Translations under genes and position numbers: made by a program
Shown here: one piece after another, positions 918-59,529 of the stretch
Position numbering within the stretch: position 1 is the stretch's first letter
How the letters are laid out: the number at the start of each line of letters is the position of its first letter
Notes under the pieces: generated by a model
The model's input: the letters and a program-made list of their open reading frames with translations, nothing else
Databases searched by the model: none
What the model was told of the DNA's origin: nothing
Source: Pseudomonadota bacterium
Lineage (GTDB): Bacteria > Pseudomonadota > Gammaproteobacteria > Steroidobacterales > Woeseiaceae
Assembly (NCBI GenBank): GCA_038524795.1
Contig: JBCBIJ010000014.1
Coordinates: 5,441-69,440 of the forward strand
Direction: 5' to 3'
Length of the DNA stretch: 64,000 bases

Positions 918-2713
918 TGCAGGTCGGCTACACGGTCGCAGCTCGCGAGCCTGCCAGACACCTCTTCGATGTCACGCTTCGCGTTGATGGCGTCGCCGAA
1001 GGGCCGCTAGAGCTCGTGTTGCCGGCCTGGATACCGGGCAGCTACATGGTGCGCGACTACGCGCGCCACATCGTGAGCCTCGAGGCGAAAGGCGATGCCG
1101 ACGCCGCGCTGGCCGTGCACAAGACGGACAAGTCGACCTGGGTGGTCGCGGTCGCGGCGGCGGGCGGGATCACTGTTGCGATGCGCGTCTACGCCTGGGA
1201 TCTGTCGGTTCGCGGTGCGCATCTCGACGACACCCACGCCTACTTCAATGGCACCAGTCTGTTCCCGCGTGTGACAGGCTACACGGGCGCCATCACGCTC
1301 GACATCGAGGCGCCTGCCGGGCTCGGTGAGGCCGCCTGGGTCGCTACGGCCATGCGTGCGCAGTACGTCGATGCGCGCGGTTTTGGTCGCTACGTCGTCG
1401 ACGACTACGCTGAGCTCATCGATCACCCCGTCGAGATCGCCGAGCAGCAGTGCATTGAGTTCGAAGCAGCGGGCCTGCCGCACCGATTCATTGTGCGCGG
1501 CGCACCGGAACTCGACGCGCCTCGGTTTGCCGCGGACCTCGAGAAAATCTGCGCGGCCCAGCACAAACTGTTGGGCACGCCCGAAGACCTGGATCGCTAC
1601 ACATTCCTGGCGTATGCATTGCCCGGCGGTTACGGCGGTCTGGAGCACCGCTGGTCGAGCTCGCTCGTGGTCGACCGCGACGCGCTGCCCGTTCCCGGTG
1701 TCGCGAGTACGGGTGACGGCTATCGCGATTTGCTGGGCCTAATTAGCCACGAGTACTTCCACCTCTGGAATGTACGCAGGCTCATGCCCGCCGTGCTATC
1801 GCCGCCCGACCTGTCAGGCGAAGTGCATACGGGGCTGCTTTGGGTGTTTGAAGGCATTACGTCCTACTACGATGACCTCATGCTGGTGCGCTCGGGCGCG
1901 ATCGATGCCGAGAGCTACCTGGAGGTCGTGGGCCGGACGCTCACACGCGTGCTGCGTACCCCGGGCCGGCTCGTGCAGAGCATCGAAGATTCGAGCTTTG
2001 ACGCCTGGACCAAGTTCTACAAGCAGGATGAGAACGCGGCCAACGCCATCATCAGCTACTACGCCAAGGGCGCCATTGTGGCCCTGGCGCTCGACCTCAA
2101 GCTGCGGGCGGAATCCACAACCACGCTCGATGACGTAATGCGCGAATGCTGGCGACGGTTCTACCTGGAAGGCGAGGGCATGCCCGAGCGCGGGCTCGAA
2201 CCCGTGGCAGCAGAACTCTCGGGGCTCGATCTGAAGGCGTTCTTCGACGTCGCGATTCGGGGCACCGAAGACATCGATCTCGCGGCCTTGCTCAAACCCT
2301 TTGGTGTGGCGCTCAGTCTGCGTGCCGCCGCAGGCAAGGACGACAAAGGCGGCAAGTCCGCCGAGAACCTGCCCAAAGCCTGGTGTGGCGTCGGTATGGA
2401 TCCGCGCGACACAGCGCGTATCGCCCGTGTGCTCAACGGCAGCCCAGCTGCGGCGGCGGGTGTGAGCGCCGGAGACCGACTGGTCGCCATTGACGGTACA
2501 CGTTGCGACAGTGCCAGGCTTGAGACGCTGTTGCAGCGTCACGCGCCTGGTGATGCGTTACGGGTCACCGTGTTCCGTGGGGATCAGTTGCGTGAGTTCA
2601 GCATGACCCTCGTCGAGCCGCCGACCGATACGGCGTGGCTGGCACGCGACGATGCCGCCGATGCTGCCGTCAGGCAGCGCTTTGCGGACTGGCTGCAGGC
2701 GCCGGTGGCTTAG
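917..2713 (+). CDS. M61 family (glycyl aminopeptidase-like) zinc metallopeptidase with C-terminal PDZ domain
   Basis: 598-aa ORF with HEYFHLWNV (HExxH) plus a downstream E. The C-terminal segment GVSAGDRLVAIDG is PDZ-like. Strong GC3 bias. Confidence 0.8.
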   Translation: MQVGYTVAAREPARHLFDVTLRVDGVAEGPLELVLPAWIPGSYMVRDYARHIVSLEAKGDADAALAVHKTDKSTWVVAVAAAGGITVAMRVYAWDLSVRGAHLDDTHAYFNGTSLFPRVTGYTGAITLDIEAPAGLGEAAWVATAMRAQYVDARGFGRYVVDDYAELIDHPVEIAEQQCIEFEAAGLPHRFIVRGAPELDAPRFAADLEKICAAQHKLLGTPEDLDRYTFLAYALPGGYGGLEHRWSSSLVVDRDALPVPGVASTGDGYRDLLGLISHEYFHLWNVRRLMPAVLSPPDLSGEVHTGLLWVFEGITSYYDDLMLVRSGAIDAESYLEVVGRTLTRVLRTPGRLVQSIEDSSFDAWTKFYKQDENAANAIISYYAKGAIVALALDLKLRAESTTTLDDVMRECWRRFYLEGEGMPERGLEPVAAELSGLDLKAFFDVAIRGTEDIDLAALLKPFGVALSLRAAAGKDDKGGKSAENLPKAWCGVGMDPRDTARIARVLNGSPAAAAGVSAGDRLVAIDGTRCDSARLETLLQRHAPGDALRVTVFRGDQLREFSMTLVEPPTDTAWLARDDAADAAVRQRFADWLQAPVA

Positions 2714-3347
2714 CCCGCCGCTGGCGCTGCCAGCGCCAGTACACGCGAATCCCGAGCAGGCCCGTGAGCACGGCCGCGTAAATCGCGGGCTCCGTGATGT
2801 CGGATTTCACCTGCCACCAGAAGTGCCAGACGCCCAGGATGCCGACCAGGTAGACGCTGTTGTGCAGCTTTTGCCAGCGTTGACCAAGCCTGCGGCGCGC
2901 GGCGAGTGTGGAGGTTGCCGTCATGGCGAGCAGCAGCACCAGGGCGATCATGCCCAGCGTGATGTAAGGGCGCTTCACGATGTCTTCGATTACGGGCGCC
3001 AGCGCGAGGCCCTGGTCGAGCACAAGGTACACGGCGAAGTGCAGCGTGACGTAGAACGCGGCGAACAGCCCGATCATGCGGCGGAACTGGGCCATCCAGT
3101 TGAACCCCGTCAGCCGCCGCAGCGGTGTCACGGCCAGCGCGAACATCGTGAACCGAAGCCCGAGCGTGCCGAAATCCTCGAGCAGGGTCTCGACCGGGTT
3201 GGCGCCCAGGCTCAGACCGGCGATTCCGAATGTCGCGGCAACAAGCCAGGCAAAGGGCGCCAGCGACAGCGCGAACACGAGCGGCTTGCCGATGAAGCGC
3301 ACGCGGTTGCGTGTGCTGAGGCCACGTTGTGGGCTCGCGGTAGTCAC
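2670..3347 (-). CDS. msrQ: protein-methionine-sulfoxide reductase heme-binding membrane subunit MsrQ (YedZ)
   Basis: Multi-TM protein with the WHFWWQVKSD motif typical of YedZ. A GTG at 3347 lies 1 nt after the msrP stop; the longer ORF to 3452 would overlap msrP and is rejected. Confidence 0.8.
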   Translation of the reverse strand: MTTASPQRGLSTRNRVRFIGKPLVFALSLAPFAWLVAATFGIAGLSLGANPVETLLEDFGTLGLRFTMFALAVTPLRRLTGFNWMAQFRRMIGLFAAFYVTLHFAVYLVLDQGLALAPVIEDIVKRPYITLGMIALVLLLAMTATSTLAARRRLGQRWQKLHNSVYLVGILGVWHFWWQVKSDITEPAIYAAVLTGLLGIRVYWRWQRQRRAKPPAPAASPQSAA

Positions 3348-5877: not shown

Positions 5878-6846
5878 TCAACGTGCAGGGTAACGTCGGC
5901 CCAGCCACTCGAGCATGAGCCGATTCACCGTCTCGGGGTGCTCCTGCTGCGTCCAGTGCCCGCAGTTCTCGAGTACATGCACCTCCAGATCATCGACATA
6001 GCGCCGCATGGTGTCGATGTGGGCCGGTGCGATGAGAACGTCGTCGTTGGCCCCGATGAACAGCGTGGGCACGCATACGCGCTGCTCGACGTCCTTTGTC
6101 AGGGCCCAGTTGCGGGTCCAGTTGCGGTACCAGTTGATGGGTGGCGTGAAGCCCGACTCTCGGAAGGCTTTGACATAAACCGCCAGCTCCTCGTCGTCGA
6201 ACAGTGGCGTGCCCGGTAGCTCGCGCTTCCGCATCTCACGCAGCATGCTGAATGCGTGTCGCGCTTCAGGTGGCGTGGCATCGAAGGCCGCTCGTGTGGC
6301 GGGCAAGCGACGGTACATGGCGCGCAGGAAGCGCTCAGGGTCTGCGTCAAAAGCCCGGTCGGCCTCGTCGGAGTCCTGAAAGTTAACGATGTAGAAGTCA
6401 TCGCCAAGGACCTTCCGCGACATGACCATTGGATCGATGTCCCGGCGCGGCGCAAAGGGAATGTTCAGCGCGATGAAGCCGCGCATACGCTCGGGGCGCA
6501 TGAGCACCATCTGCCAGAGCAAGAGCGCGCCCCAATCATGACCGACAAACACGGCATCTTCGTGGCCCAGCGCGTCCAACAGACCGCACAGATCGTCCAT
6601 GAGGTGGAAGATGTCGTAGGCCTCGACGGATTCGGGCCGGCTGCTGCCCGCATAGCCACGCTGGTCGGGGGCGACAAAGCGGTAGCCGGCGTCGACGAGC
6701 GCTGCGACCTGGTGGCGCCATGAGTAGGCGATCTCCGGGAAGCCGTGGCAAAGGATAATGGGGGGCGAAGTGGGGTCGCCGGCCAGGTGGACGTCTAGGG
6801 TGATGCCATTGGTGGCGATTTGGGTCGGTTCAGGGAACGTGGGCAT
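5878..6846 (-). CDS. alpha/beta hydrolase, epoxide-hydrolase-like
   Basis: From ATG 6846 (MPTFPEPTQIATNGITL...). Has HGFPE, a GHDWGA nucleophile elbow, and a C-terminal GHWTQQEHPE. The 513-aa track ORF extends antisense through the ileS leader and is rejected. Confidence 0.8.
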   Translation of the reverse strand: MPTFPEPTQIATNGITLDVHLAGDPTSPPIILCHGFPEIAYSWRHQVAALVDAGYRFVAPDQRGYAGSSRPESVEAYDIFHLMDDLCGLLDALGHEDAVFVGHDWGALLLWQMVLMRPERMRGFIALNIPFAPRRDIDPMVMSRKVLGDDFYIVNFQDSDEADRAFDADPERFLRAMYRRLPATRAAFDATPPEARHAFSMLREMRKRELPGTPLFDDEELAVYVKAFRESGFTPPINWYRNWTRNWALTKDVEQRVCVPTLFIGANDDVLIAPAHIDTMRRYVDDLEVHVLENCGHWTQQEHPETVNRLMLEWLGRRYPAR

Positions 6847-6912
6847 TCCCGAAGTATCGCGGGTGGGAGGTTGTGGCGCCAGTTGGGGGTTGTGCCAGTG
6901 GGCCGGTGCGCC

Positions 6913-7012
6913 GGGCGACAAGAAGCCATCGCGGGTACGCAGTTCGTACATCCCTGTACGCTCGTGGGCGACGTCCCTGTCGCCCACGCCCCGCGATGGC
7001 TTCTCGTCGCCC
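6913..7012. repeat. compound palindromic element (long stem enclosing two hairpins)
   Basis: Arms 6917-6935 GACAAGAAGCCATCGCGGG and 6990-7008 CCCGCGATGGCTTCTCGTC pair with 1 mismatch. Inner hairpins are GTACG/CGTAC (6935-6949) and GTGGGCGAC/GTCGCCCAC (6964-6987). Confidence 0.4.
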
Positions 7013-7115
7013 GACACACCTACGTTTGTGGTATCGCCGTGGACTCGCTGTTGCCGCGTTTTGGGTGCCGCCTGCTCTCGCTTTGGTTGTGTTTGCGCGC
7101 TAAGATCGCGGCGAA

Positions 7116-7378
7116 CGCGATGACGGGGCCAGTAGGGCCGATCACGCAGGTATGAGCGAGCGGGAGACGGTGAGAGTCCCGCGCCTGCGCCGGACCTGAA
7201 CATCTCCCTCGAGCGGCGCCCCGAACCCCGATAGCGGGCAGTAGACGGCGACGGCTGGTTCCCGACACGGACCGGGTCTCGTACCCACAGAGGCAGCGCG
7301 CGCGAGCATGCTGTGAAACCGGGTGGTACCGCGGAATCCCGCCCCGGACGCTTTAGTGAAGGCGCCCGGGGTTTTTTG
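7116..7378 (+). promoter_or_regulatory. T-box leader (tRNA-sensing transcription attenuator), putative Ile specifier
   Basis: Stem I elements appear in canonical order. These are GCGAUGA 7117-7123, AGUA 7131-7134, hairpin GCGGGA-GACGGUGAGAG-UCCCGC 7160-7182, GAAC-AUC-U 7198-7205 and CUCGAGCG 7208-7215. The T-box sequence AAACCGGGUGGUACCGCGG is at 7316-7334. The antiterminator is CCGGG[UGGUACC]GCGG-AAUC-CCGC-CCCGG (7319-7347), and it competes with the terminator at 7342-7377. Confidence 0.8.
7342..7377 (+). terminator. intrinsic terminator of the ileS leader (attenuator)
   Basis: Stem CCCCGGACGC / GCGCCCGGGG (one A-C mismatch), a 10-nt loop, then TTTTTT at 7372-7377, 22 nt before the ileS ATG. 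Its 5' arm is shared with the antiterminator. Confidence 0.75.
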
Positions 7379-7399
7379 TGCCCGGGCGAGGACGAGACC

Positions 7400-10543
<3,144 letters not shown>

Positions 10544-10736
10544 GCGCCCTGCTTGCAGGGTCTTCGAAAAACCTGCTATAAGTTTGGGCGAAGGGGAGAG
10601 TCACGCACTCGGTGTTGCTGTCGGTGTCCCAGCGGTCCGGTCCAGGATCGCGATGCCGAATCCTGAAGAGATCATCGATGCCCGACCTCAGCGCCCGAAA
10701 GGGCAAAAAGAACACGCGAGCTATCGCGGGGGATCT

Positions 10737-11129
10737 ATGTCGGCCATAAAAGACTCGTTTCACGAGGCTCTGGTCATTTTGACCAGCCACGAGAACGCAA
10801 AAACGCGGCTTACCAAGGCGTGGGTGGACACCTTGGAGCACCTGGCCTCAGACGAGCTTCCCGACAGTATCCGCGACCAGTTCAACCGCATGCGCAAGCA
10901 GCTCACAGCGCGGCGTCCGGTCAACAACGAAAACCCCATTGTGGCCACGATTCGCAAGATGTCTCCGGCCGAGGCAGCCCGCTTTGGCTGCGAGATCGTG
11001 AACATGTACGCCAATGTCATGGCTGGCGATCACCCCGTACAGCTGCGAATCGTCGATGTTGCGGCCGAGTCTCAGCCTGATAACGGCGAGGGCAAGGACG
11101 GCGTACCGGACTTTCTGTCCCGCCACTAG
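10737..11129 (+). CDS. hypothetical protein
   Basis: ORF 10584-11129 has good GC3 bias from about 10737 onward, and GGGGGA lies 5 nt upstream of the ATG at 10737. An alternative ATG is at 10653. I recognise no family. Confidence 0.45.
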   Translation: MSAIKDSFHEALVILTSHENAKTRLTKAWVDTLEHLASDELPDSIRDQFNRMRKQLTARRPVNNENPIVATIRKMSPAEAARFGCEIVNMYANVMAGDHPVQLRIVDVAAESQPDNGEGKDGVPDFLSRH

Positions 11130-44761: not shown

Positions 44762-45658
44762 TTCGACCCTGCTTTGACCGATCGCCGTGCCACATGGCAG
44801 CGGCGGTGACCTCGTTCGTTTTCCGTCTGCGGTGGTCTCAAGCACACCGCGTTGCGTCCCGTTCGCGAGCCCTGCCGGAGTCTGATCGCAGTTCACTGTC
44901 GTTGCAGTGATGGCGCTCACAATCCCGACGCTGGTGTGGCGTCGCACCCACATGTGGGCAGCTCTTGGCGGTTCGCTACACGGAAGTGGTTGCAATCGGC
45001 GTGCCAGCCCTGGGCGTTTCGGGCGTCTGAGGGCCGTGCGGCAGGAAAATCAACGGCTTAGCAAAAAAGGCCCCGTGTCGCAGGTGACGAGCATATGTAA
45101 AGCCGTTGTCGGGGGGTTGGGACAGTAGGGTGGCAGGGCGTAGTTAAATCATTGAAAAATAACAAATAAAAATTTGTCGCTGGAGTGAGACAGGGGTGCC
45201 GCGCATTGGCACCAGTGGTTTTGCCCGATGCGCGTGCGCCAGTTCACAAAAATGCGTCGTTCGCCGAAGACCGGTCTGTTTGGACACCAAATCAGGCTGA
45301 TTAGACGCAAGACCCCTAGTTCTCTTGGGTTTTGCGTGCGGGCGTATTTGCGGAATTCGGCGCTGTCGGACGCCGCCAGGTGTGCTGTCGTCTTTTCGAG
45401 ACATTACGAGTCACGACACCGATTTCTATACTCGCGCCGTTCCGAGGTTGCTGTGGCAGGTGCCCAGCTGGGTCGGAGCGCACAGTTCGGACCGATGCCA
45501 ACTGGCGCTGCGGGCGAACTGTGAAGTTGTTAACAGAATGCGCGACGGGCGATCGTCACCATGCCGTTACGTTCAATCGGCAGGTATGCGGTGCAGTCAG
45601 GTCTGGGACCTGGGCACGGCGAAGGCGACGCCTCGAAAAGCGCTTCGAGGTGCTCCCA

Positions 45659-48316
45659 ATGGACAAAGCGGTAACGGTGAAAACAAGTCATACAACGTGT
45701 GTCCGCGCGCTCGCACTCGTGCTGGCGCTCGCAACGGCGGCAGGCTGCAGTTCCTCCGGCAGCGAAGGCGACCAGGTCGGCTTCGGTGCGGGCCAGGCGC
45801 CTGATCCCGTCGCGCTCGAATTTCCGATTGTTTACGTCCAACGCCCGATTCCCCTCGATGACGACGGCGCGCTCGTGGAGGAAGACATCCGCGAGGTGCT
45901 GTCCTTCAACCCTGGTGCTGACCTGTTTTTCCGCGACCGCGCGTCGCCCAGTACGCCCGATGTGAATCTCACGGGCGACTTCACCATGGGTCTGGCCGAT
46001 ATTCGGGACGTCACCGTGTCGTTCGATGCGACAAAGGTGGCGTTCGCGATGCGTTACCCGTTCGATCCCGACGCCGACGACGAGGAGCAGGTGACGTGGA
46101 ACATCTGGGAGTACGACATCCCGAGCGACACGCTGCGGCGTGTGATCTCGTCTGACATCACGGCGGAAGCGGGCCACGACATCGCCCCGCAGTTCCTGCC
46201 CGACGGGCGACTCGTGTTCAGTTCGACGCGCCAGCGCCAGTCCGTGGCCATCCTGCTCGACGAGGGCAAGCCGCAGTTTCCGGCTTTCGACGGCGACGAC
46301 AATGAGCCCGGCTTCCTGCTGCACACAATGACGACCGACGGTACGGACATCGAACAGATCGGCTTCAACCAGAGCCATGAACTCAATCCGGTCGTACTCG
46401 ATGACGGCTCAGTCGTGTTTTCGCGTTGGGACAACGTCGGCGGCACCAACGAGTTCAACCTCTACAAGATGAATCCCGACGGCACAAACCTGCAGCTGCT
46501 GTACGGCGCGCAGAGCCATGATGTCGACAACGACGGTCAGCAGGAGCAGTTCATGCAGCCGCAGGTGCTGCCTGATGGCACGCTCATCTCGCTGCTCAAG
46601 CCGTTCACCGGGCCGACGACGGGCGGCGCACTCGTCGATATCGACGTGTCGACCTACCTTGAGAACACGCAGCCCAGTGTGAATAACACGGGTATGGCCG
46701 GCCCTGCCCAAACGCCGGCGACGATCAACAATGTGCTTGCCGCCGCCGACCAAATATCGCCGGGCGGCCGCTATCGCTCGGTGTATCCGCTGCGTGACGG
46801 CACGGACCGTCTGCTCGTAAGCTGGAGCCAGTGCCGCTTGCAAGACATCGACATGGTCATTCTTGCCTGCACACCTGACAACCTGGCTAACCCGGATCTC
46901 ACCCAGGCACCGCCGCTGTACGGCATCTGGATGTACGACCGCGAGCAGGAAACGCAGGCGCCCGTCGTGACGCCTGTCGAGGGCGTGATCTTCTCGGACA
47001 TCGTTGTGGCGGAGCCGCGCGATGTGCCGCTGGTGCTGCTCGCAGGTTCCAATACCTTCCTGCTCGATCCGGATATCGGTGACGAAGGTGTTGGTGTACT
47101 CAACATTCGCACCGTGTACGACGTTATGGGTGTCGACACAGCGCCAGGCGGCATCGACGTGCTCGCCGATCCTGCGCAAACCCTCGCTGCAGAGCGTCCC
47201 GCACGCTTCCTGCGACTCGAGAAGGCCGTTTCCATGCCCGACGAGGAACTCGTCGATGTGCCGGGATCAGCCTTTGGCGTCGGCGGTGGCCAGGGCTTCC
47301 GCGAAATTCTGGGTTACACGATGATCGAGCCCGATGGCTCGGTCATGGTCAAGGTGCCGGCCGACATCGCCTTCACCATGTCGATCACCGATGCCAACGG
47401 CCGCCGCATCTCGGCGCGTCATAACAACTGGCTACAGATTCGCCCCGGCGAAGAGCTCAAGTGCCAGGGCTGCCACGATGGCGGCAGCGGCCTGTCACAC
47501 GGTCGCGCCGATGCGTTTGCCTCGGCACACGACGGCGGGCAGAACATTAGCGTGCCATTTCCGAACACGGACCCTGCGCTGTTCATCGACACGCCGGGCG
47601 AAACGATGGCCGAGGTGCGCGCCCGCGTGTCGTGCTCAACGGATAACTGCTCGTCGCTGCAGCCGACCGTCGACGTGACCTATCGAGACGTTTGGACCGA
47701 TGAGGTCGCCGCCGGTCGCCAGGCCGATCCTGATATCGATCTGCGTTACGCCGACCTGCTGTCGCCACGTCCCGTGCAGCCGTCCTGCGAGCAGAATTGG
47801 ACAGCCAGCTGCCGCACGGTCATCCATTACGAGGATCACATTCACCCGCTGTGGTCGGTGCCGCGCGTGACACTCGACGGCATGGGTAACGTGGTCAGCG
47901 ACTTCACTTGCATTTCCTGCCACACGGATCGCGATGCCGCGAACCAGTTACAGGTGCCTGCCGGCCAGCTCAACCTGACGGACGGCCTCGCGCCTGAGGA
48001 GCAGGATCAGTTCGAGGCTTACCGCGAACTCGTGATTGCCGACGTCGAGGTCGAATTGAACATGGGTGCGCTGCAGCCGCGTCTCGTGCAGGTTGATACG
48101 GACCCGGTTACGGGCGATCCGATTTTCGCGACCGTTAATGTCCCGCCAAGCGCGCGCGGCGCGGGCGCGAATGCGTCACCTGTGTTCTTTAGCCGATTCG
48201 CGCCGGGCGGCACGCACGCCGGCTACCTCAACGAGGGTGAGTTGCGCCTGATTGCCGAGTGGCTCGACATCGGTGCGCAGTACTACAACGACCCATTCCG
48301 GGTACCCCAGGACTAA
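45659..48316 (+). CDS. lipoprotein with PD40/TolB-like beta-propeller repeats and C-terminal double CxxCH region
   Basis: Lipobox ATAAGC. Repeats are DIAPQFLPDGRLVFSSTR, LNPVVLDDGSVVFSRWD, YKMNPDGTNLQLLY and PQVLPDGTLISLL. Has KCQGCHDGG and TCISCHTDRD. The track ORF start at 45332 is rejected. Confidence 0.65.
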   Translation: MDKAVTVKTSHTTCVRALALVLALATAAGCSSSGSEGDQVGFGAGQAPDPVALEFPIVYVQRPIPLDDDGALVEEDIREVLSFNPGADLFFRDRASPSTPDVNLTGDFTMGLADIRDVTVSFDATKVAFAMRYPFDPDADDEEQVTWNIWEYDIPSDTLRRVISSDITAEAGHDIAPQFLPDGRLVFSSTRQRQSVAILLDEGKPQFPAFDGDDNEPGFLLHTMTTDGTDIEQIGFNQSHELNPVVLDDGSVVFSRWDNVGGTNEFNLYKMNPDGTNLQLLYGAQSHDVDNDGQQEQFMQPQVLPDGTLISLLKPFTGPTTGGALVDIDVSTYLENTQPSVNNTGMAGPAQTPATINNVLAAADQISPGGRYRSVYPLRDGTDRLLVSWSQCRLQDIDMVILACTPDNLANPDLTQAPPLYGIWMYDREQETQAPVVTPVEGVIFSDIVVAEPRDVPLVLLAGSNTFLLDPDIGDEGVGVLNIRTVYDVMGVDTAPGGIDVLADPAQTLAAERPARFLRLEKAVSMPDEELVDVPGSAFGVGGGQGFREILGYTMIEPDGSVMVKVPADIAFTMSITDANGRRISARHNNWLQIRPGEELKCQGCHDGGSGLSHGRADAFASAHDGGQNISVPFPNTDPALFIDTPGETMAEVRARVSCSTDNCSSLQPTVDVTYRDVWTDEVAAGRQADPDIDLRYADLLSPRPVQPSCEQNWTASCRTVIHYEDHIHPLWSVPRVTLDGMGNVVSDFTCISCHTDRDAANQLQVPAGQLNLTDGLAPEEQDQFEAYRELVIADVEVELNMGALQPRLVQVDTDPVTGDPIFATVNVPPSARGAGANASPVFFSRFAPGGTHAGYLNEGELRLIAEWLDIGAQYYNDPFRVPQD

Positions 48317-53826: not shown

Positions 53827-56800
53827 CTACTGCGTGTCGAGGTTTCTGCGATCTCTGTCGAAGAATGCCCTGAGGGCTGCCGTTGTATGCGAAACATCAT
53901 TTAATTCAGCGAGTTGCTTCGGTTTTCCCTGTGCAACGATGCGGCCACCCGCTGCACCACCTTCCGGACCCATGTCGATGATCCAGTCGGCTTCGGCAAT
54001 AATGTCGAGATTGTGTTCTATTATCAGTACCGAGTGCCCTGCATCGACGAGCCGGTGTAGGACCCGGATCAGTTTTTCGACGTCCGCCATGTGCAGCCCG
54101 ATGGTTGGCTCGTCGAGCACATAGAGCGTGTGCTGCGGATTGTCGACGGCCTCAAGTACGGGCCGCGCCGGGTCGGGGCGTGCCTTGGCCAGTTCACTGA
54201 CGAGCTTGATGCGCTGCGCCTCGCCACCTGACAGGGTGGGGCTTGGCTGGCCCAGTGTCAGGTAACCCAGGCCAACGGCGTCCAGCAGCTTGAGCGCGTG
54301 GTGGATTTTCGGGTGTGCAGCAAAGAATTCGACGGCATCCGAAACGGCCATCTGCAGAATGTCGCCGATGCTTTGGCCGCGGTAGCGGATCCCGAGGGTG
54401 TCGGGTGTGAAGCGCTTGCCGCCGCAGGCCTCACAGGGCACCTGTACGTCTGGCATGAAGCTCATCTCGATACGTCGCATGCCCTGGCCGTCACATTCGG
54501 GACAGCGACCCTCTTTGGTGTTGAACGAGAATCGGCTTGCCGTGTAGCCACGCATGCGCGCCTCGGGCGTTTGCGCGAATAGCTTGCGGATGTCGTCCCA
54601 GAACCCAACGTAGGTCGCGGGGCAGGAGCGTGGGGTCTTGCCGATCGGCGTTTGGTCAACCTCCAGCACGCGGCTGATCGATTCCCAGCCCTCAAGCGCC
54701 TGGCACCCGACAAGCGGTGCCTGTTTGCGCCCCCGCCGGCGACCCGCCGACACCAGACGGGCCACGTTGGTTTCGACGACGCCGCGAATGAGCGAGCTCT
54801 TGCCGCTGCCCGACACGCCGGTCACCGCGACAAGCGCGCCCAGGGGCAGGCGCGCTGAGACGCGCTTTAGATTGTTGAGTGTGGCCTGTTTGACGGCGAG
54901 TGCGGGTGCACTGCGCCGACGCGGGTTGACGTCTCGCGGCGTCTCGACAACGGGGTGTTGCAAGGGCTCACGGAGCATGCGGCCCGTGAGCGACTCGCTC
55001 GCGCGCTCGATACGGCGCAGGTTGCCCTCGGCAACGATTCGGCCGCCGCGTGTTCCGGCGCCCGGTCCGATGTCGATGATGTGCTGAGCGCCCCGGATCG
55101 TGTCCTCGTCGTGCTCGACCACCACGACCGTGTTGCCGCTCTTCTGCAAGGCCTGCAGCGTGCCCAGTAGTTTGGCGTTGTCGCGCGCGTGCAAGCCAAT
55201 CGTTGGTTCGTCGAGGATGTAGCAGACGCCGCGCAGATTGGAGCCGAGTTGTGCCGCGAGCCGGATGCGTTGCGCCTCGCCACCTGAAAGGGTCGGTGCG
55301 CTGCGCGACAACGTCAGATAACCAAGCCCAACTCGCTCGAGAAAGCCAAGTCTGCCTTCGAGTTCGGCGATGATGTCGCGCGCCACTTCAGCATCGCGGC
55401 CTTTGAGATTGAGGGTCGTGACCCAGGCCAGCGCATCGGAGACAGGCATATCGGCGTAGCTCGCAATATTCTGATCCCGGAAAGTGACCGCCAGGGCTTC
55501 TTCGTTGAGCCGGGCGCCGTTGCAGGTCCCGCAGGTCTCCTCCGACTCACTGGCCGTGCTGCGCCACCACTGCGTGTCGTCCTCTTCCTCATCGCTGTCG
55601 ATGCCCGTGCCCGAGCAACTGGGACACCACCCTCGTGGAGAGTTGTAGGAAAACAGGCGCGGATCGAGTTCCGGGAAGCTGCGAGCGCAGCTTGGGCAGG
55701 CGCGCACGGTCGAGTAGAGCGTATCGTCGCCATCGGCATTCACAATCACGTTGCCCTTGCCGAAATCGAGTGCGTCCGACAGCGCGGCATTCAGCGCCTG
55801 CTCCTTGCGCGCATCGATACGCATCGTGGCCACAGGTAGCTCGATGTTGTGCTCGACGAAGCGATCCAGCCGTGGCCAGGGATCCACCGGGGTGAGCTCG
55901 CCGTCCACGCGCAGGGTCTCGAAGCCCTTGCGGCCCGCCCACGCAGCGAGGTCTGTGTAATAGCCCTTGCGACCGATGACCAGCGGCGCAAGCAGCGTGA
56001 TGTCACAGCCCTTGTGTCGTTTCTGCAGCAGCGCTGAAATTTGTTCGGGCGTCTGCGGCTCGATGGGAACGTTGCAGTCAGGGCAGTGCGCCGTGCCCAG
56101 CTTGACGAACAACAGGCGCAAGAAGTGGTAGACCTCGGTCATCGTGCCGACGGTGCTTTTGCGGCCGCCGCGGCTCGTGCGCTGCTCAATGGCTACCGTG
56201 GGCGGTATGCCGAGGACGGCATCCACATCGGGCCGGCTCGCAGGTTGCACGAACTGTCGCGCGTAGGCGTTCAGAGACTCGAGGTAACGGCGCTGGCCTT
56301 CGTTAAAGAGGATGTCAAAGGCGACGGTGCTTTTGCCGCTTCCCGACACGCCCGTGATGACGGTGAAGGTGTCGCGCGGAATCGAAACATCGACGTCACG
56401 CAGGTTGTGTTCCCGCGCGTGGCGGATTTCGATGGCGCGCGCGGCGCGTTCGCGTTTCGCAGGCAGGTACTCGGCTGCAGTCTCCGCAGCCATTTGCATG
56501 GGGTCCTGAGTCTTGCGGTAGCGCCCCAGGGCAATACCCGTGTGGTTGTCCTTGGCATCGATGAGTCCCTCAACCGGACCGGCGTAGCCGAGCTTGCCGC
56601 CCCCTTCGCCACCTTCCGGACCCAGGTCGACGATCCAGTCGCTGGCGTCGATGACATCGAGGTTGTGCTCGATAACGACAATGCTGTGGCCCTCATCGAT
56701 GAGCTTGTCGAACGCGCCCAAGAGTCGTTCGATGTCGCTGAAGTGCAGCCCAGTGGTCGGCTCGTCGAACAGGAACAGCTTGCCTTTGCCGAACCGCTTC

Positions 56801-59340
56801 GACTGCGCCTCAACCAGGTGCTTGGCGAGCTTAAGCCGCTGTGCCTCGCCGCCTGACAGGGTGGGCACGGGCTGACCCAGCCTGAGGTAGTCAAGCCCGA
56901 CGTCAACAAGCGGCTGTAGTGATCGCGACACCGCCGGCGTCTCCGCAAAAAACGCGAGCGCCTCTGTCACGGTCATGTCCAGCACATCGGCAATCGACTT
57001 GGACGGGCCATCATCATTCGCGGGCCAGACGTGTACCTCCAGAATCTCGTCGCGAAAGCGCTTGCCATCGCACACAGGGCAGCGCAGGTACACGTCTGAG
57101 AGGAATTGCATCTCGACGTGCTCGTAGCCCGTGCCACCGCAATGCGGGCAGCGCCCATCGCCCGAGTTAAAGCTGAACTTCCCCGGCTTGTAGCCGCGTT
57201 CGACGGCCAGCGGCTGCTCGCAGAACTGCTTGCGTATGGCATCGAAGGCACCGACGAAGCTGGCCGGATTCGAGCGTGCGGTCTTGCCGATCTGCGCCTG
57301 GTCCACGTAGACCACGTTCTCGATGGCATCGGGGTTGACCAGGGTGTCGTGCGCGCCGGGTAGATCGCCGCCGCCGCCGAAGTGCCGCCGCAATGCCGGA
57401 TAGAGAACATCGCCGACGAGAGTTGATTTGCCGCTGCCCGAAACGCCTGTGACGCACACGAGCCCACCGAGCGGAAAGTCCACATCGATGTCTTGCAGAT
57501 TGTGCGCCCGTGCGCCACGCACTCCGACGCTTCCGCGGGCCGCATCGAGCTCCCGCCGCTGGCGGCAGTCAGCCACGCGCCGCTTCCCCGTCAGGTAGGC
57601 ACCCGTGCCTGAGCGGCGACGGGCAAGACCCTTGATGGTGCCGTTAAAGACAATCTGGCCGCCGCGCTCGCCGGGACCGGGACCGATGTCCACGATGCGG
57701 TCGGCGACGTGCATGATCTGCGGATCGTGCTCGACCACGATAAGCGTATTGCCTGCGTCACGCAGTCGCGTGAGCACCGCGTTAATGCGGCTGACGTCGC
57801 GCGGGTGCAGACCGATGGAGGGTTCATCGAGCACAAACAGCGTATTGACCAGCGACGTGCCGAGCGCCGTTGTCAGGTTGATGCGCTGCACTTCGCCACC
57901 GGACAACGTTCGTGATTGGCGGTCGAGCGTCAGGTAACCGAGCCCCGTTTCAGCGAGAAAGCTGATGCGCCCGCGGATCTCCTCAAGCAACAACTCCGCG
58001 GCCTCTGCCACGGCGGCCGGCGGTCGCCAGGCGTCGAAAAAAGCAGCCAATCGTGTGATCGGCAGCAGCATCAGCTCATGCATGTTGAGCCCAGGTGGCG
58101 CACCCTCTCGTGTGGCACCCGCTGCGTCGGTGGCGGCCTTGTCTCCGAGCCGCCAACGCAGGCCCGCCGGTTTCAGCCGTGCACCATTGCAGGCCGGGCA
58201 GGTTTCGTAACTGCGGTAGCGCGAGAGCATGACGCGCACGTGCATCTTGTAGGCCTTGCTCTCGAGCCAGTCGAAGAACGCTGTGACGCCGGGCCACAGG
58301 CCCTTGCTGACACTGCCCTCGCCGTCGAAGACCCAGGCCTGGTCATCGGCATCGAGGTCCTCCCATGGAGTGTTGACCGAAATGCCCGCTTTACGGGCGC
58401 GACGCAGCAGCCGCGTCTGCAGGTCGCTGTAGCTCTTGCCCTGCAGTGGCTTGATGGCGCCGTCCTCAAGCGACAGGCGTGGGTCGGGTACGACGAGCGC
58501 CCTGTCGATCCCCATGACGCGACCGAACCCCCGACAGGTCTCGCAGGCCCCCAGCGGCGAGTTAAACGAGAACATGCTCGGCGTGGCCGGGGAAAACTCA
58601 AGATCACAGCTCGCGCAATGCAGGCGCGATGAGAACCGCGCTGTGGCCTGGGCGTCCTCTTCGGCATCAAGGTCCACAATGGCGACGTGACCGTCACCCC
58701 GCGACAACGCTTCCTCGATGGCTTCGATGGCGCGCTCATAGCGGTCGGGGTCCAGCCGCAGTCGGTCCTGCACGACCTGCAACGCGTCATCGCGCCGTTT
58801 GAGGATGCGCGTGTACCCCTGTTGCGCCAGGAAGCGCTCGATTTCATCGGCAGAGAAATTCTCTGGTATCGCCGCCTCGAAGGTGATGGCGACGCGGCGG
58901 CCCGGCCAGCGCTCGAGCACAGCATCCCAAATGGACTGCGGGTGATCCTCTCGAACCAGTTCGCCGTTGACGTCGCAGTAAAGGTCGGCCGCCCGCGCGA
59001 ACAGGAGCTTCAGGTGGTCGTTGAGCTCGGTCATCGTGCCCACCGTTGACCGCGATGTGCGCACGGGATTGGTCTGATCGATGGCGATGGCGGGCGGGAT
59101 GCCGTCGATACGATCAACGGCAGGTTTGTCCATGCGGTCGAGGAACTGGCGCGCGTAGGGGGAGAAGGTCTCGACGTAACGGCGCTGGCCCTCGGCATAA
59201 ATCGTATCGAACGCCAGCGAGGACTTGCCACTGCCCGAGACGCCCGTGACGACAATGAGCTCACCGAGCGGCAGGTCAATGTCGACGTTGCGCAGGTTGT
59301 TCTGGCGGGCACCGCGGACGGCGATCCGGTCTCGGGCCAT
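53827..59340 (-). CDS. tandem-duplicated UvrA-like ABC ATPase (two fused UvrA units, four nucleotide-binding sites)
   Basis: 1837 aa from ATG 59340. Four Walker A sites are present: [36 protein letters not shown] and [12 protein letters not shown]. There are four LSGGE signatures and UvrA zinc modules (CASC..CETC, CPHC..CPVC, CPDC, CPSC..CPSC, CPEC..CEAC). Confidence 0.9.
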
Positions 59341-59529
59341 GTCAGGCTGCTCCGGTTTGGCGGGGGTTGGCGTCGCGCCACAGCGGGCGAATGATGCGAC
59401 CGGCGGCAAGCTGACACGCGGCCGCAGCGGGACAGCCGTTATACTGTGCCCGCGCCGTTGCAACAACGTCGACCCCGCCCGGACAACCCGAACCGCCTCG
59501 CAAACAGGCAGCGCGACATCAGGACCCCC

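What the first reader, a model, noticed from the sequence alone, without database searches (positions are those of the whole stretch)
7116..7399. Complete T-box riboswitch-type leader with Ile-like specifier in front of ileS
The + strand upstream of ileS carries the T-box elements in the canonical order. The K-turn halves are GCGAUGA (7117-7123) and CUCGAGCG (7208-7215). The specifier-loop pieces are AGUA (7131-7134) and GAAC-AUC-U (7198-7205). A distal hairpin has a GGUGAGAG loop (7160-7182), and the invariant T-box sequence GGGUGGUACCGCG lies within 7316-7334. The T-box sequence folds into an antiterminator, CCGGG[UGGUACC]GCGG-AAUC-CCGC-CCCGG. Its bulge UGGU can pair with a tRNA 3' end ACCA. 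Its 3' arm (7342-7347) is also the 5' arm of a 10-bp terminator followed by U6 (7342-7377), so the two structures are mutually exclusive. T-box leaders are abundant in Firmicutes and only sporadic elsewhere (ileS in Actinobacteria, some Deinococcus-Thermus, Chloroflexi and Deltaproteobacteria). This example sits in an otherwise proteobacterium-like Gram-negative context, which would be an unusual host. Caveat: the AUC is preceded by GAAC rather than GAA and followed by U rather than the usual purine. The specifier register (AUC Ile versus CAU His) needs a proper fold.
Basis: partly seen in the sequence, partly recalled or inferred. Interest (0 to 1): 0.7.

Follow-up and report, generated by a model that had tools for sequence, protein, structure and literature searches.

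The report
Isoleucine T-box riboswitch in a gammaproteobacterium
The leader in front of the isoleucyl-tRNA synthetase gene is a genuine, complete tRNA-sensing T-box riboswitch of the ordinary transcription-terminating kind, and its only unusual aspect is its host: a Woeseiaceae-like gammaproteobacterium, a group not normally credited with T-boxes.

Summary
Rfam RF00230 matches full length (1-219) at 49.6 bits, E 5e-10. That is below the gathering score of 93, so standard annotation would miss it. Homologous leaders precede ileS in 13 related gammaproteobacterial MAG loci (directly in 12; in L015 ahead of a GST-like ORF), and two of the eight scored (L014 103.8 bits, L004 99.4 bits) pass the gathering score. 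Stem I covaries strongly: all 22 pairs change on both sides across 48 leaders and 95% of cells are paired. The IIA/IIB pseudoknot also covaries. The window and the 12 directly adjacent relatives all have the UGGUACC-bulged antiterminator, mutually exclusive with a terminator plus U-tract. The specifier is AUC (Ile): GAA-N-AUC is fixed in 47 of 48 leaders, so the CAU (His) register is rejected. The U after AUC is unique within the clade. The regulated gene is a type-2 (eukaryote-like, MupA/B-like) IleRS. In a rough tree the gammaproteobacterial copies form one clade next to Chloroflexota, which also carry T-box-ileS. The best reading is that uncharged tRNA-Ile(GAU) stabilises the antiterminator and allows read-through into ileS. 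This is a new member of a known kind in an unusual host lineage, of moderate interest.

The parts
7078..7083 (+). Putative -35 hexamer (TCGCTT), weak
   Evidence: It aligns under the conserved CTTGTN of 12 relatives' leaders, 17 nt upstream of the -10. The consensus promoter scan does not detect it. Inferred only.
7101..7106 (+). Putative -10 hexamer (TAAGAT). The predicted transcription start is about 7113-7114, at the base of Stem I
   Evidence: It aligns with the TAnnnT (TAATTT, TAGTTT, TAGAAT) of relatives, with the same 7-nt spacing to the start of Stem I. Inferred only.
7116..7215 (+). Stem I. It contains the K-turn (GAUGA 7119-7123 / CGAG 7210-7213), the specifier loop (AGUA 7131-7134; GAA 7198-7200), the AG bulge AGCGA 7155-7159, and the distal loop GACGGUGAGAG 7166-7176
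   Evidence: Rfam alignment. All 22 consensus pairs form in the window. RNAalifold on 13 sequences gives 19 of 22 pairs with compensatory changes. On 48 sequences, 22 of 22 pairs covary and 95.1% of cells are paired.
7202..7204 (+). Specifier codon AUC (Ile), followed by U7205 in place of the usual purine
   Evidence: GAA-N-AUC is present in 47 of 48 ileS leaders (the 48th, L034, reads CAA-A-AUC). The base after AUC is A in 13 of 14 gammaproteobacterial leaders and U only in the window. Outside the clade it is C 21, A 11, U 1.
7217..7250 (+). Stem II with S-turn (GAA 7223-7225 / AGUA 7240-7243). The lower helix is 7217-7220 with 7247-7250, and the upper helix is 7227-7230 with 7235-7238
   Evidence: Rfam alignment, fold of the isolated segment, and GAA...RNUAR conserved in relatives.
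7252..7272 (+). Stem IIA/IIB pseudoknot. IIA is CGG 7252-7254 with CCG 7262-7264, followed by the F-box-like CCGACA. IIB is GUUC 7258-7261 with GGAC 7269-7272
   Evidence: On alignment A3, IIB has 4 of 4 pairs changed on both sides and 90% of cells paired, and slid controls give 41% or less. The structure was drawn by hand from these same sequences.
7274..7286 (+). Variable extra hairpin (GGGU-CUCGU-ACCC) between the pseudoknot and Stem III
   Evidence: Fold of the isolated segment. It is present in most gammaproteobacterial leaders and absent in L002 and L014.
7289..7318 (+). Stem III (7293-7298 with 7309-7314) flanked by the conserved purines AGAGG ... GAAA
   Evidence: Fold. GAGG-Stem III-GAA is conserved in most of the gammaproteobacterial leaders. 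It matches the RRRxG-Stem III-AA motif described in PMC7583486.
7319..7347 (+). Antiterminator. Helix A1 is CCGGG/CCCGG, the 7-nt T-box bulge is UGGUACC 7324-7330, and helix A2 is GCGG/CCGC
   Evidence: The isolated segment folds to this shape (-13.2 kcal/mol) in the window and in all 12 relatives folded. The T-box core is invariant.
7341..7377 (+). Intrinsic terminator: a 13-bp stem with one A.C mismatch (7341-7372), then U6 at 7372-7377. Its 5' arm (7341-7347) overlaps the 3' strand of the antiterminator
   Evidence: -27.9 kcal/mol. Every relative folded has a hairpin plus U-tract at the same place, with stems from about 10 to more than 40 bp and unrelated sequences. This hairpin is also the only T-box element that the full-length MFE fold recovers.
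7363..7387 (+). Post-terminator hairpin. The terminator 3' arm CGCCCGGG (7363-7370) can pair with CCCGGGCG (7380-7387), next to the Shine-Dalgarno sequence
   Evidence: -18.9 kcal/mol. It is also present in L003 and partly in L009. Its role is unknown.
7389..7392 (+). Shine-Dalgarno sequence AGGA, 7 nt before the ATG
   Evidence: Read from the sequence. It is not part of the terminator or the antiterminator.
7400..10543 (+). ileS, a type-2 (eukaryote-like) isoleucyl-tRNA synthetase of 1047 aa
   Evidence: Pfam tRNA-synt_1 + Anticodon_1 + DUF5915. TIGR00392 at 946 bits, and MupA/MupB-like at about 820 bits. In the PDB, 8C8W and 1ILE score about 900 bits against 349 for S. aureus 1FFY. The N-terminus aligns with relatives from residue 1.

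Best explanation
Window 7114-7377 is a functional class-I (transcription-attenuating) T-box riboswitch specific for tRNA-Ile. It controls a type-2 ileS gene in a Woeseiaceae-like gammaproteobacterium. Transcription probably starts near 7113, from a promoter whose -10 is TAAGAT. Stem I folds first and presents the specifier AUC (7202-7204) to the GAU anticodon of tRNA-Ile. Its distal AGCGA bulge and GGUG loop form the platform that stacks on the tRNA elbow. Stem II and the IIA/IIB pseudoknot buttress the codon-anticodon helix. If the bound tRNA is uncharged, its 3'-ACCA pairs with UGGU in the T-box bulge (7324-7327) and stabilises the antiterminator (7319-7347). That holds 7341-7347 away from the terminator, so RNA polymerase reads through into ileS. 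If the tRNA is charged, the more stable terminator (7341-7372 plus U6) forms and transcription stops at about 7377. Net effect: ileS expression rises when Ile-tRNA charging falls. What is shown here: the elements, their conservation and covariation, the mutually exclusive alternative helices, and the identity of the regulated gene. What is inferred: tRNA binding, the read-through response, the promoter, and the origin of the ileS-plus-leader unit by transfer from a T-box-bearing lineage such as Chloroflexota.
For: (1) RF00230 matches full length, model 1-219, at 49.6 bits and E 5e-10. Homologous leaders in the same clade score 50.6-103.8 bits, and L014 (103.8) and L004 (99.4) exceed the gathering score of 93. 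(2) Thirteen gammaproteobacterial MAG loci carry the same leader, directly before ileS in 12 and ahead of a GST-like ORF in L015. (3) Stem I covaries. RNAalifold gives 19 of 22 pairs with compensatory changes on 13 sequences. On 48 leaders from four phyla, 22 of 22 pairs change on both sides, 95.1% of cells are paired, 0 of 500 shuffles reach the observed values, and slid controls give 49% or less. (4) The IIB pseudoknot helix has 4 of 4 covarying pairs. (5) The specifier GAA-N-AUC is fixed in 47 of 48 leaders while N varies. AUC also obeys the 'C rule' for the third position (PMC7583486). (6) The window and all 12 relatives folded (13 leaders) give the same bulged antiterminator, and each has a stronger overlapping terminator with a U-tract. 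The terminator stems differ completely in length and sequence, and L059 carries a compensated change, CCCUGG/CCAGGG. (7) The gene is an IleRS (TIGR00392 at 946 bits), so specifier and regulated gene match. (8) Host: the nearest IleS sequences (62-77% identity) are all from Woeseiaceae or other Gammaproteobacteria MAGs from independent studies. Flanking genes match only those loci. The window encodes three TonB_C proteins and an AcrB pump.
Against: The Rfam score in the window itself is about half the gathering score, and nothing is reported at gathering threshold. Single-sequence folding of the whole leader does not recover Stem I and is no more stable than shuffled sequences (z = -0.28). The consensus Stem I fold is about 4 kcal/mol worse than the unconstrained fold. 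The base 3' of the specifier is U rather than the conserved purine, and the window is the only member of its clade with this. The -35 element is weak, and the consensus promoter scan finds nothing. No tRNA-Ile gene is available to check the anticodon or the discriminator base. There are no expression data. The covariation alignment A2 was fitted to the model structure, which favours that structure.
Confidence: 0.85

Rival explanations
1. The element is a decaying relic in this particular genome. The T-box came in with ileS but no longer responds to tRNA here, so ileS is expressed constitutively by leaky read-through or from another promoter.
For: Three features are out of line. The window is the only one of 14 gammaproteobacterial leaders with U instead of A after the specifier. 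It has the lowest Rfam score of the clade members tested. Its -35 hexamer has diverged from the clade consensus. Three related gammaproteobacterial ileS loci (L008, L012, L013) have lost or never had the leader.
Against: All 22 Stem I pairs, the pseudoknot, Stem III, the invariant T-box core, the antiterminator and a strong terminator with U6 are intact in the window. A strong terminator with no working antitermination in front of an essential gene would be deleterious. U or C after AUC occurs in 22 other apparently intact ileS leaders.
Confidence: 0.07
2. The T-box acts mainly on translation, as in actinobacterial ileS leaders, with tRNA binding controlling access to the Shine-Dalgarno sequence rather than termination.
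For: Translational ileS T-boxes are well documented in Actinobacteria (PMC11297988, PMC12647780). A second hairpin (7363-7370 with 7380-7387, -18.9 kcal/mol) ends one base before the SD, and it recurs in L003 and L009. It could therefore modulate initiation.
Against: The SD (7389-7392) is not paired in either alternative structure. The helix that competes with the antiterminator is followed by U6 in the window and by a U-tract in all 12 relatives. Stem I is the long form with a distal platform, not the short actinobacterial form. The post-terminator hairpin is absent from most relatives.
Confidence: 0.05
3. The host assignment is wrong. The contig, and the similar MAG contigs, come from a Chloroflexota-like or other classical T-box lineage and were mis-binned, so there is no unusual host.
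For: All the related sequences are metagenome-assembled, and taxon labels come from record titles only. No rRNA gene or ribosomal protein marker was examined in the window.
Against: Seventeen loci from independent studies and binning pipelines all carry gammaproteobacterial labels, some on contigs of 130 kb to 2.4 Mb. Their IleS sequences form one clade distinct from Chloroflexota, at about 50% identity to it. The window's flanking genes match only those loci. The 64-kb window encodes TonB_C proteins and an AcrB-type RND pump typical of diderms. In L013 the gene sits behind ribF, as in Proteobacteria.
Confidence: 0.05

Closest known systems
Class-I (transcriptional) T-box leaders of Bacillota, Rfam RF00230, for example B. 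subtilis tyrS and ileS
   Same: The domain order is the same. Stem I is long, with a K-turn, a specifier loop with S-turn, an AG bulge and a distal loop. Stem II with its S-turn, the IIA/IIB pseudoknot with an F-box-like sequence, and Stem III follow. The antiterminator has the 7-nt UGGNACC bulge and competes with an intrinsic terminator. The specifier follows the third-position 'C rule' (PMC7583486).
   Different: The host is a diderm gammaproteobacterium. The sequence is 70% GC and scores only 49.6 bits against the largely AT-rich model. The base 3' of the specifier is U. There is an extra small hairpin between the pseudoknot and Stem III.
T-box leaders of type-2 ileS in Chloroflexota, some Actinomycetota and some Clostridia (loci L016-L077 here). 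ileS T-boxes in Chloroflexi and Deinococcus are reported in PMC2494555
   Same: They regulate the same gene type (IleRS2 with DUF5915). They share the GAA-N-AUC specifier, the AGCGA bulge (43 of 48 leaders), the GGUG distal loop, and a terminator plus U-tract. The IleS proteins are the nearest outgroup to the gammaproteobacterial clade.
   Different: Antiterminator helix A1 is CCGGG/CCCGG in the gammaproteobacterial leaders and mostly CAGGG/CCCUG in Chloroflexota. The base after AUC is mostly C there and A in the gammaproteobacterial clade. The IleS proteins are only about 50% identical.
Translational ileS T-boxes of Actinobacteria (Mycobacterium tuberculosis, Nocardia farcinica)
   Same: Ile specificity, the ileS target, and the Stem II / IIA-B pseudoknot / discriminator core (PMC11297988, PMC12647780).
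   Different: Those have a short Stem I without the distal platform and sequester the Shine-Dalgarno sequence. This one has a long Stem I and an intrinsic terminator, and its SD is free.
Proteobacterial T-boxes reported so far: leuA leaders of Geobacter and Pelobacter (delta-proteobacteria), and a hisS cluster said to include 'isolated Gammaproteobacteria'
   Same: These are T-box elements in Proteobacteria (PMC2494555, PMC3766115; PMC2965389 Figure 5 legend).
   Different: The regulated gene differs (leuA or hisS rather than ileS) and so does the class. Here the element is conserved across a whole set of related gammaproteobacterial lineages and is linked to a type-2 ileS.

Membership tests
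T-box leader (Rfam RF00230) | Covariance-model score at or above the curated gathering score (93 bits) | tested here: not met
   The window scores 49.6 bits over the full-length model, with E 5e-10, and gives no hit at gathering threshold. Homologous leaders L014 (103.8) and L004 (99.4) do pass; six others score 50.6-85.6. The shortfall tracks GC content: the window hit is 70% GC with a composition-bias term of 16.3, and the two relatives that pass are the lowest-GC ones.
T-box leader (Rfam RF00230) | Long Stem I with K-turn, specifier loop (S-turn AGUA/GAA), AG bulge (AGVGA) and distal-loop T-loop motif | tested here: met
   All are present at 7116-7215. The 22 pairs form in the window, and 22 of 22 covary across 48 leaders. 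AGCGA occurs in 43 of 48 and GGUG in 41 of 48.
T-box leader (Rfam RF00230) | Specifier codon at the fixed position in the specifier loop, matching the amino acid of the regulated gene, with C at the third position | tested here: met
   AUC at 7202-7204 lies upstream of an IleRS gene. GAA-N-AUC is fixed in 47 of 48 leaders.
T-box leader (Rfam RF00230) | [quoted passage not shown] | tested here: not met
   The window has U7205. The 13 other gammaproteobacterial leaders have A. Among the other ileS leaders, 21 have C and 1 has U, so the rule is already relaxed in this subfamily.
T-box leader (Rfam RF00230) | Stem II with S-turn, and Stem IIA/IIB pseudoknot with F-box | tested here: met
   Stem II is at 7217-7250 with GAA and AGUA. 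IIA/IIB is at 7252-7272, and IIB has 4 of 4 covarying pairs. The F-box is a variant, CCGACA against the consensus CCGUUA.
T-box leader (Rfam RF00230) | Invariant T-box sequence forming an antiterminator with a 7-nt bulge UGGNACC | tested here: met
   GGGUGGUACCGCG lies at 7321-7333. The bulged antiterminator folds in the window and in all 12 relatives folded.
T-box leader (Rfam RF00230) | Mutually exclusive terminator (class I) or sequestrator (class II) | tested here: met
   The terminator 7341-7372 plus U6 shares 7341-7347 with the antiterminator. The energies are -27.9 against -13.2 kcal/mol. The same arrangement is found in all relatives folded.
T-box leader (Rfam RF00230) | Bulge base N of UGGN complementary to the discriminator base of the cognate tRNA, and anticodon complementary to the specifier | not testable with these tools
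   There is no tRNA gene in the window or in 17 related loci. UGGU predicts discriminator A73 and AUC predicts anticodon GAU, as is usual for bacterial tRNA-Ile (general knowledge, not tested here).
T-box leader (Rfam RF00230) | tRNA-dependent, charging-sensitive read-through | not testable with these tools
   This needs in vitro transcription or in vivo expression data.
Type-2 (eukaryote-like) isoleucyl-tRNA synthetase, IleRS2 | Closer to the IleRS2, T. thermophilus and eukaryotic enzymes than to the E. coli / S. aureus type, with the type-2 C-terminal domain | tested here: met
   In the PDB, 8C8W and 1ILE score about 900 bits, eukaryotic cytoplasmic IleRS about 700, and 1FFY 349. The DUF5915 C-terminal domain is present. 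The MupA and MupB models score about 820 bits, below their exception cut-offs.

The most novel reading that the evidence does not exclude
A whole clade of basal Gammaproteobacteria (Woeseiaceae and neighbouring lineages, which are abundant in marine sediments) acquired a type-2 ileS together with its T-box leader from a Chloroflexota-like donor. They have kept the riboswitch functional through long divergence (IleS down to about 62% identity). If so, this would be the first documented clade-wide, vertically maintained T-box system in Gammaproteobacteria. It would also show that the tRNA-sensing antitermination mechanism works with gammaproteobacterial RNA polymerase, tRNA modifications and termination factors.
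Probability: 0.45. Interest if true: 0.6.

Novelty: new member of a known kind. Interest (0 to 1): 0.45.

Why it matters
T-box riboswitches are usually described as a Gram-positive device. Surveys list Firmicutes, Actinobacteria, Chloroflexi and Deinococcus-Thermus, and within Proteobacteria only a few delta-proteobacterial leuA leaders (PMC2494555, PMC3766115).

A conserved, covarying T-box in front of ileS across a set of gammaproteobacterial lineages extends that host range. It gives a clean example of a regulatory RNA apparently travelling with its gene during transfer of an aminoacyl-tRNA synthetase.

It also shows a practical blind spot. High-GC members such as this one score about half the Rfam gathering threshold, so routine annotation would not flag them. 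T-boxes in GC-rich, non-Firmicute genomes are therefore probably undercounted.

The mechanism itself is textbook, so the value is in distribution and evolution rather than in new biochemistry.

Tried and rejected
- **Rfam at gathering threshold over the whole window:** no hits. The T-box appears only with the E-value threshold on the sub-region.
- **Single-sequence MFE folding of the whole leader:** it recovers only the terminator and is no more stable than shuffles (z = -0.28). It was rejected as uninformative for a 70%-GC RNA, and domain-wise folds and comparative analysis were used instead.
- **My first Stem I energy check:** it used mis-indexed pairs and was redone.
- **Chloroflexota ileS leaders as translational (SD-sequestering):** I suspected this from their short hairpins. 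Listing the downstream sequences showed U-tracts after the hairpins, so the idea was dropped.
- **CAU (His) register:** rejected, because the base before AUC varies freely.
- **Consensus sigma-70 and terminator scan of 6950-7450:** found neither. The terminator is missed because of its internal mismatch and long stem. The promoter was inferred only from alignment with relatives.
- **tRNA search in the window and in 17 related loci:** none found, so the discriminator-base check could not be done.
- **Weak Rfam hits overlapping the terminator** (NsiR1, sX11, ncS037, CRISPR-DR9; E above 1): these are generic terminator or GC-palindrome matches.
- **Literature searches for T-box with Gammaproteobacteria plus ileS, with Woeseia, and with Pseudomonadota:** no report of this element. 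The two classic surveys, PMC2271356 and PMC2650889, are not held in the library.
- **MAFFT alignment A1:** it shifted the window row by one column near AGUA. This was corrected by realigning with the covariance model.
Full report
**1. The observation**

- the K-turn halves GCGAUGA (7117-7123) and CUCGAGCG (7208-7215)
- AGUA (7131-7134)
- GAAC-AUC-U (7198-7205, with AUC at 7202-7204)
- the distal hairpin 7160-7182, with loop GACGGUGAGAG
- the T-box core GGGUGGUACCGCG (7321-7333)
- the antiterminator CCGGG[UGGUACC]GCGG-AAUC-CCGC-CCCGG (7319-7347)
- a terminator plus U6 ending at 7377

The terminator is longer than described. It has 13 pairs with one A.C mismatch, spans 7341-7372, and folds at -27.9 kcal/mol.

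**2. Is it more than chance?**

A whole-window Rfam scan at gathering thresholds reports nothing. With the E-value threshold on 7000-7450, RF00230 (T-box) matches full length (model 1-219, window 7111-7349) at 49.6 bits, E 5.1e-10. The family gathering score is 93. By Rfam's curated criterion the window sequence alone is therefore not a member, although the match is far beyond chance.

The other weak hits (NsiR1, sX11, ncS037, CRISPR-DR9; E above 1) only reflect the terminator and a GC palindrome.

**3. The regulated gene and its context**

The ORF starting at ATG 7400 (SD AGGA at 7389-7392) and ending at 10543 is an isoleucyl-tRNA synthetase:
- Pfam gives tRNA-synt_1, Anticodon_1 and the C-terminal DUF5915.
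- TIGR00392 ileS scores 946 bits against a cut-off of 621, and the MupA/MupB models score about 820 bits.
- Against solved structures it matches the 1032-residue IleRS entries 8C8W, 8C8V and 8C8U, and T. thermophilus 1ILE, at about 900 bits. Eukaryotic cytoplasmic IleRS score about 700 bits. S. aureus 1FFY and the 921-residue bacterial IleRS score only about 350 bits.

It is therefore a type-2, eukaryote-like IleRS. Bacteria generally use either ileS1 or ileS2 as the housekeeping gene, and ileS2 is known for horizontal transfer (bioRxiv 10.1101/2022.02.09.479832).

The upstream gene is an alpha/beta-hydrolase on the minus strand (5878-7017). The leader therefore lies in a 382-bp divergent intergenic region.

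The window comes from a 66-kb contig of a Logan assembly of SRR22824300. It is about 63% GC throughout, with no compositional anomaly at ileS. It encodes three TonB_C-domain proteins and an AcrB-type RND pump, which indicates a diderm.

**4. Relatives and host**

A scan of one genome per GTDB species with the IleS protein gave two tiers of matches.
- The nearest relatives (62-77% identity) are 17 loci, all labelled Woeseiaceae, Gammaproteobacteria, Chromatiales, Acidiferrobacteraceae, Arenicellales or Pseudomonadota. They come from many independent studies and include contigs of 130 kb and 2.4 Mb.
- The next tier (about 50% identity) is mostly Chloroflexota, followed by Actinomycetota, Clostridia, Bacteroidota and others.

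Woeseiaceae are Gammaproteobacteria. The window's flanking proteins find matches only in the gammaproteobacterial loci:
- the hydrolase in L001 and L005, at 55% identity
- a small ORF immediately after ileS in six loci
- orf3076 in L002 and L014

I conclude that the host is a Woeseiaceae-like gammaproteobacterium. This rests on record titles and synteny, not on marker-gene phylogeny of the contig itself.

**5. Conservation of the leader**

The exact T-box core lies 72-142 nt upstream of ileS in 12 of the gammaproteobacterial loci, and further upstream in L015. The leaders are clearly homologous along their whole length.

The Rfam model scores eight of them at 50.6-103.8 bits. L014 (103.8) and L004 (99.4), the two lowest-GC members, exceed the gathering score. 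So the clade's leaders are bona fide T-boxes by the curated criterion. The window's low score goes with its 70% GC and a composition-bias term of 16.3.

**6. Structure tested by covariation**

- **Stem I, 13 sequences.** RNAalifold on a MAFFT alignment of 13 Stem I regions independently predicts the T-box Stem I, and 19 of its 22 pairs show compensatory changes.
- **Stem I, 48 sequences.** MAFFT had shifted the window row by one column, so I built a covariance model (R1) and searched the window and 80 loci. It found 48 full-length Stem I matches, all upstream of ileS, and only one in the window, at 7114-7222 (85.8 bits).
- **Pair counts.** On the resulting alignment, 95.1% of cells are standard pairs and all 22 pairs change on both sides. 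None of 500 shuffles reaches the observed values, and sliding the 3' partners drops pairing to 49% or less. One caveat applies: this alignment is fitted to the model structure.
- **Stem I in the window.** All 22 pairs form. The constrained fold (-38.4 kcal/mol) is within 4 kcal/mol of the unconstrained one (-42.4).
- **Stem II.** It carries the S-turn (GAA 7223-7225, AGUA 7240-7243).
- **IIA/IIB pseudoknot.** IIA is 7252-7254 with 7262-7264, and IIB is 7258-7261 with 7269-7272. The IIB helix has 4 of 4 pairs with changes on both sides, for example GUCC/GGAC, ACCC/GGGU, GCUC/GAGC and GAUCU/AGAUC. It is 90% paired, against 41% or less in slid controls. I drew this structure by hand from the same sequences.
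- **Stem III.** It spans 7293-7314 and is flanked by AGAGG and GAAA, matching the RRRxG-Stem III-AA motif in the review PMC7583486.

**7. Specifier**

In the Rfam model, the 3' side of the specifier loop is GAA, one base, the codon, then one base. Across the 48 leaders the base after GAA varies (A 27, U 12, G 6, C 2) while AUC is fixed in all. The codon is therefore AUC (Ile), it matches the regulated gene, and it obeys the third-position C rule (PMC7583486). The CAU (His) register is rejected.

The base after the codon is A in the 13 other gammaproteobacterial leaders and U only in the window. Outside the clade it is C in 21, A in 11 and U in 1. So the window's U is a real oddity within its clade, but it falls inside the range tolerated by ileS T-boxes.

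**8. Expression platform**

For the window and 12 relatives, the isolated discriminator folds into the same antiterminator with the 7-nt UGGUACC bulge (-9.6 to -13.5 kcal/mol). The longer segment folds into a terminator that uses the antiterminator's 3' strand and is followed by a U-tract (-24 to -85 kcal/mol).

The terminator stems range from about 10 to more than 40 bp and have unrelated sequences. L059 carries a compensated change (CCCUGG/CCAGGG). The SD is not part of either structure. This is therefore a class-I, transcription-terminating T-box. The Chloroflexota leaders also end in a hairpin plus U-tract, so my initial suspicion that they were translational was wrong.

**9. Promoter**

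Relatives share CTTGTN, a 17-nt spacer, TAnnnT, and then 7 nt to the base of Stem I. The window keeps the -10 (TAAGAT, 7101-7106) at the same spacing. It has a weak -35 (TCGCTT, 7078-7083), and the consensus scan finds nothing. A start near 7113-7114 is inferred, not shown.

**10. Evolution**

A rough neighbour-joining tree of 79 IleS proteins (no support values) places the gammaproteobacterial sequences in one clade, sister to the Chloroflexota clade.

The gammaproteobacterial loci without a T-box next to ileS are scattered within the clade. They are L013, where ribF sits directly upstream as in typical Proteobacteria, plus L012 and L008. The simplest reading is a single acquisition of ileS2 with its leader, long vertical maintenance, and occasional loss. 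This is inference.

**11. What is known**

Surveys place T-boxes in Firmicutes, Actinobacteria, Chloroflexi and Deinococcus-Thermus. Within Proteobacteria they list only leuA leaders of Geobacter and Pelobacter (PMC2494555; PMC3766115).

Full-text searches for T-box with Gammaproteobacteria plus ileS, with Woeseia, and with Pseudomonadota found no description of this element. One paper's figure legend mentions a hisS T-box cluster 'including isolated Gammaproteobacteria' (PMC2965389).

Because two clade members pass the Rfam threshold, some of these leaders may already be flagged in databases. I could not check that.

**12. Verdict**

Mechanistically it is a textbook Ile T-box. What is unusual is that it occurs, conserved across a clade, in Gammaproteobacteria, linked to a type-2 ileS. 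High-GC members like this one also escape standard annotation. I rate it as a new member of a known kind, with interest 0.45.

Noticed in passing
window 7363-7387: The 3' arm of the terminator (CGCCCGGG, 7363-7370) is perfectly complementary to CCCGGGCG (7380-7387), which ends one base before the Shine-Dalgarno sequence. The hairpin folds at -18.9 kcal/mol. The same feature is present in L003 and partly in L009, but not in the lower-GC relatives. In read-through transcripts it could hold the freed terminator arm or affect translation initiation. Its role is unknown.
   Followed up: partly
window 10653-11129 (+): A 158-aa ORF directly downstream of ileS has no Pfam or NCBIfam match. It is conserved at the same position after ileS in L001, L002, L005, L007, L010 and L059 (29-38% identity). 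It may be co-transcribed with ileS and so fall under T-box control.
   Followed up: partly
L015 2058-6147: In an Arenicellales MAG the T-box leader (Stem I 2058-2164, core at 2267, terminator) precedes a glutathione S-transferase-like ORF (2280-2987), which in turn precedes ileS. The leader would therefore control a GST-ileS operon.
   Followed up: partly
L025, L038, L039, L047 (about 1825-3001): In several Chloroflexota the Ile T-box precedes an AlaX-like trans-editing gene of about 244 aa (tRNA-synt_2c C-terminal region plus tRNA_SAD), which lies upstream of ileS.
   Followed up: partly
L013 2035-6115: A gammaproteobacterial MAG on a 2.4-Mb contig has ribF (FAD synthetase / riboflavin kinase) directly upstream of the type-2 ileS, with no T-box. 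This is the classic proteobacterial ribF-ileS arrangement but with the type-2 enzyme. The ileS reading frame appears broken there, probably by long-read sequencing errors.
   Followed up: partly
window 7274-7286: An extra small hairpin (GGGU-CUCGU-ACCC) lies between the IIA/IIB pseudoknot and Stem III. It is present in most gammaproteobacterial leaders, is larger in L001, L003, L004, L005 and L009, and is absent in L002 and L014.
   Followed up: no
window 45332-48316 (+) and 53827-59466 (-): A 994-aa protein has a hydrazine-synthase-alpha middle domain (HZS_alpha) plus a PD40 repeat. Nearby there is a mechanical ORF of 1879 aa that I did not examine.
   Followed up: no
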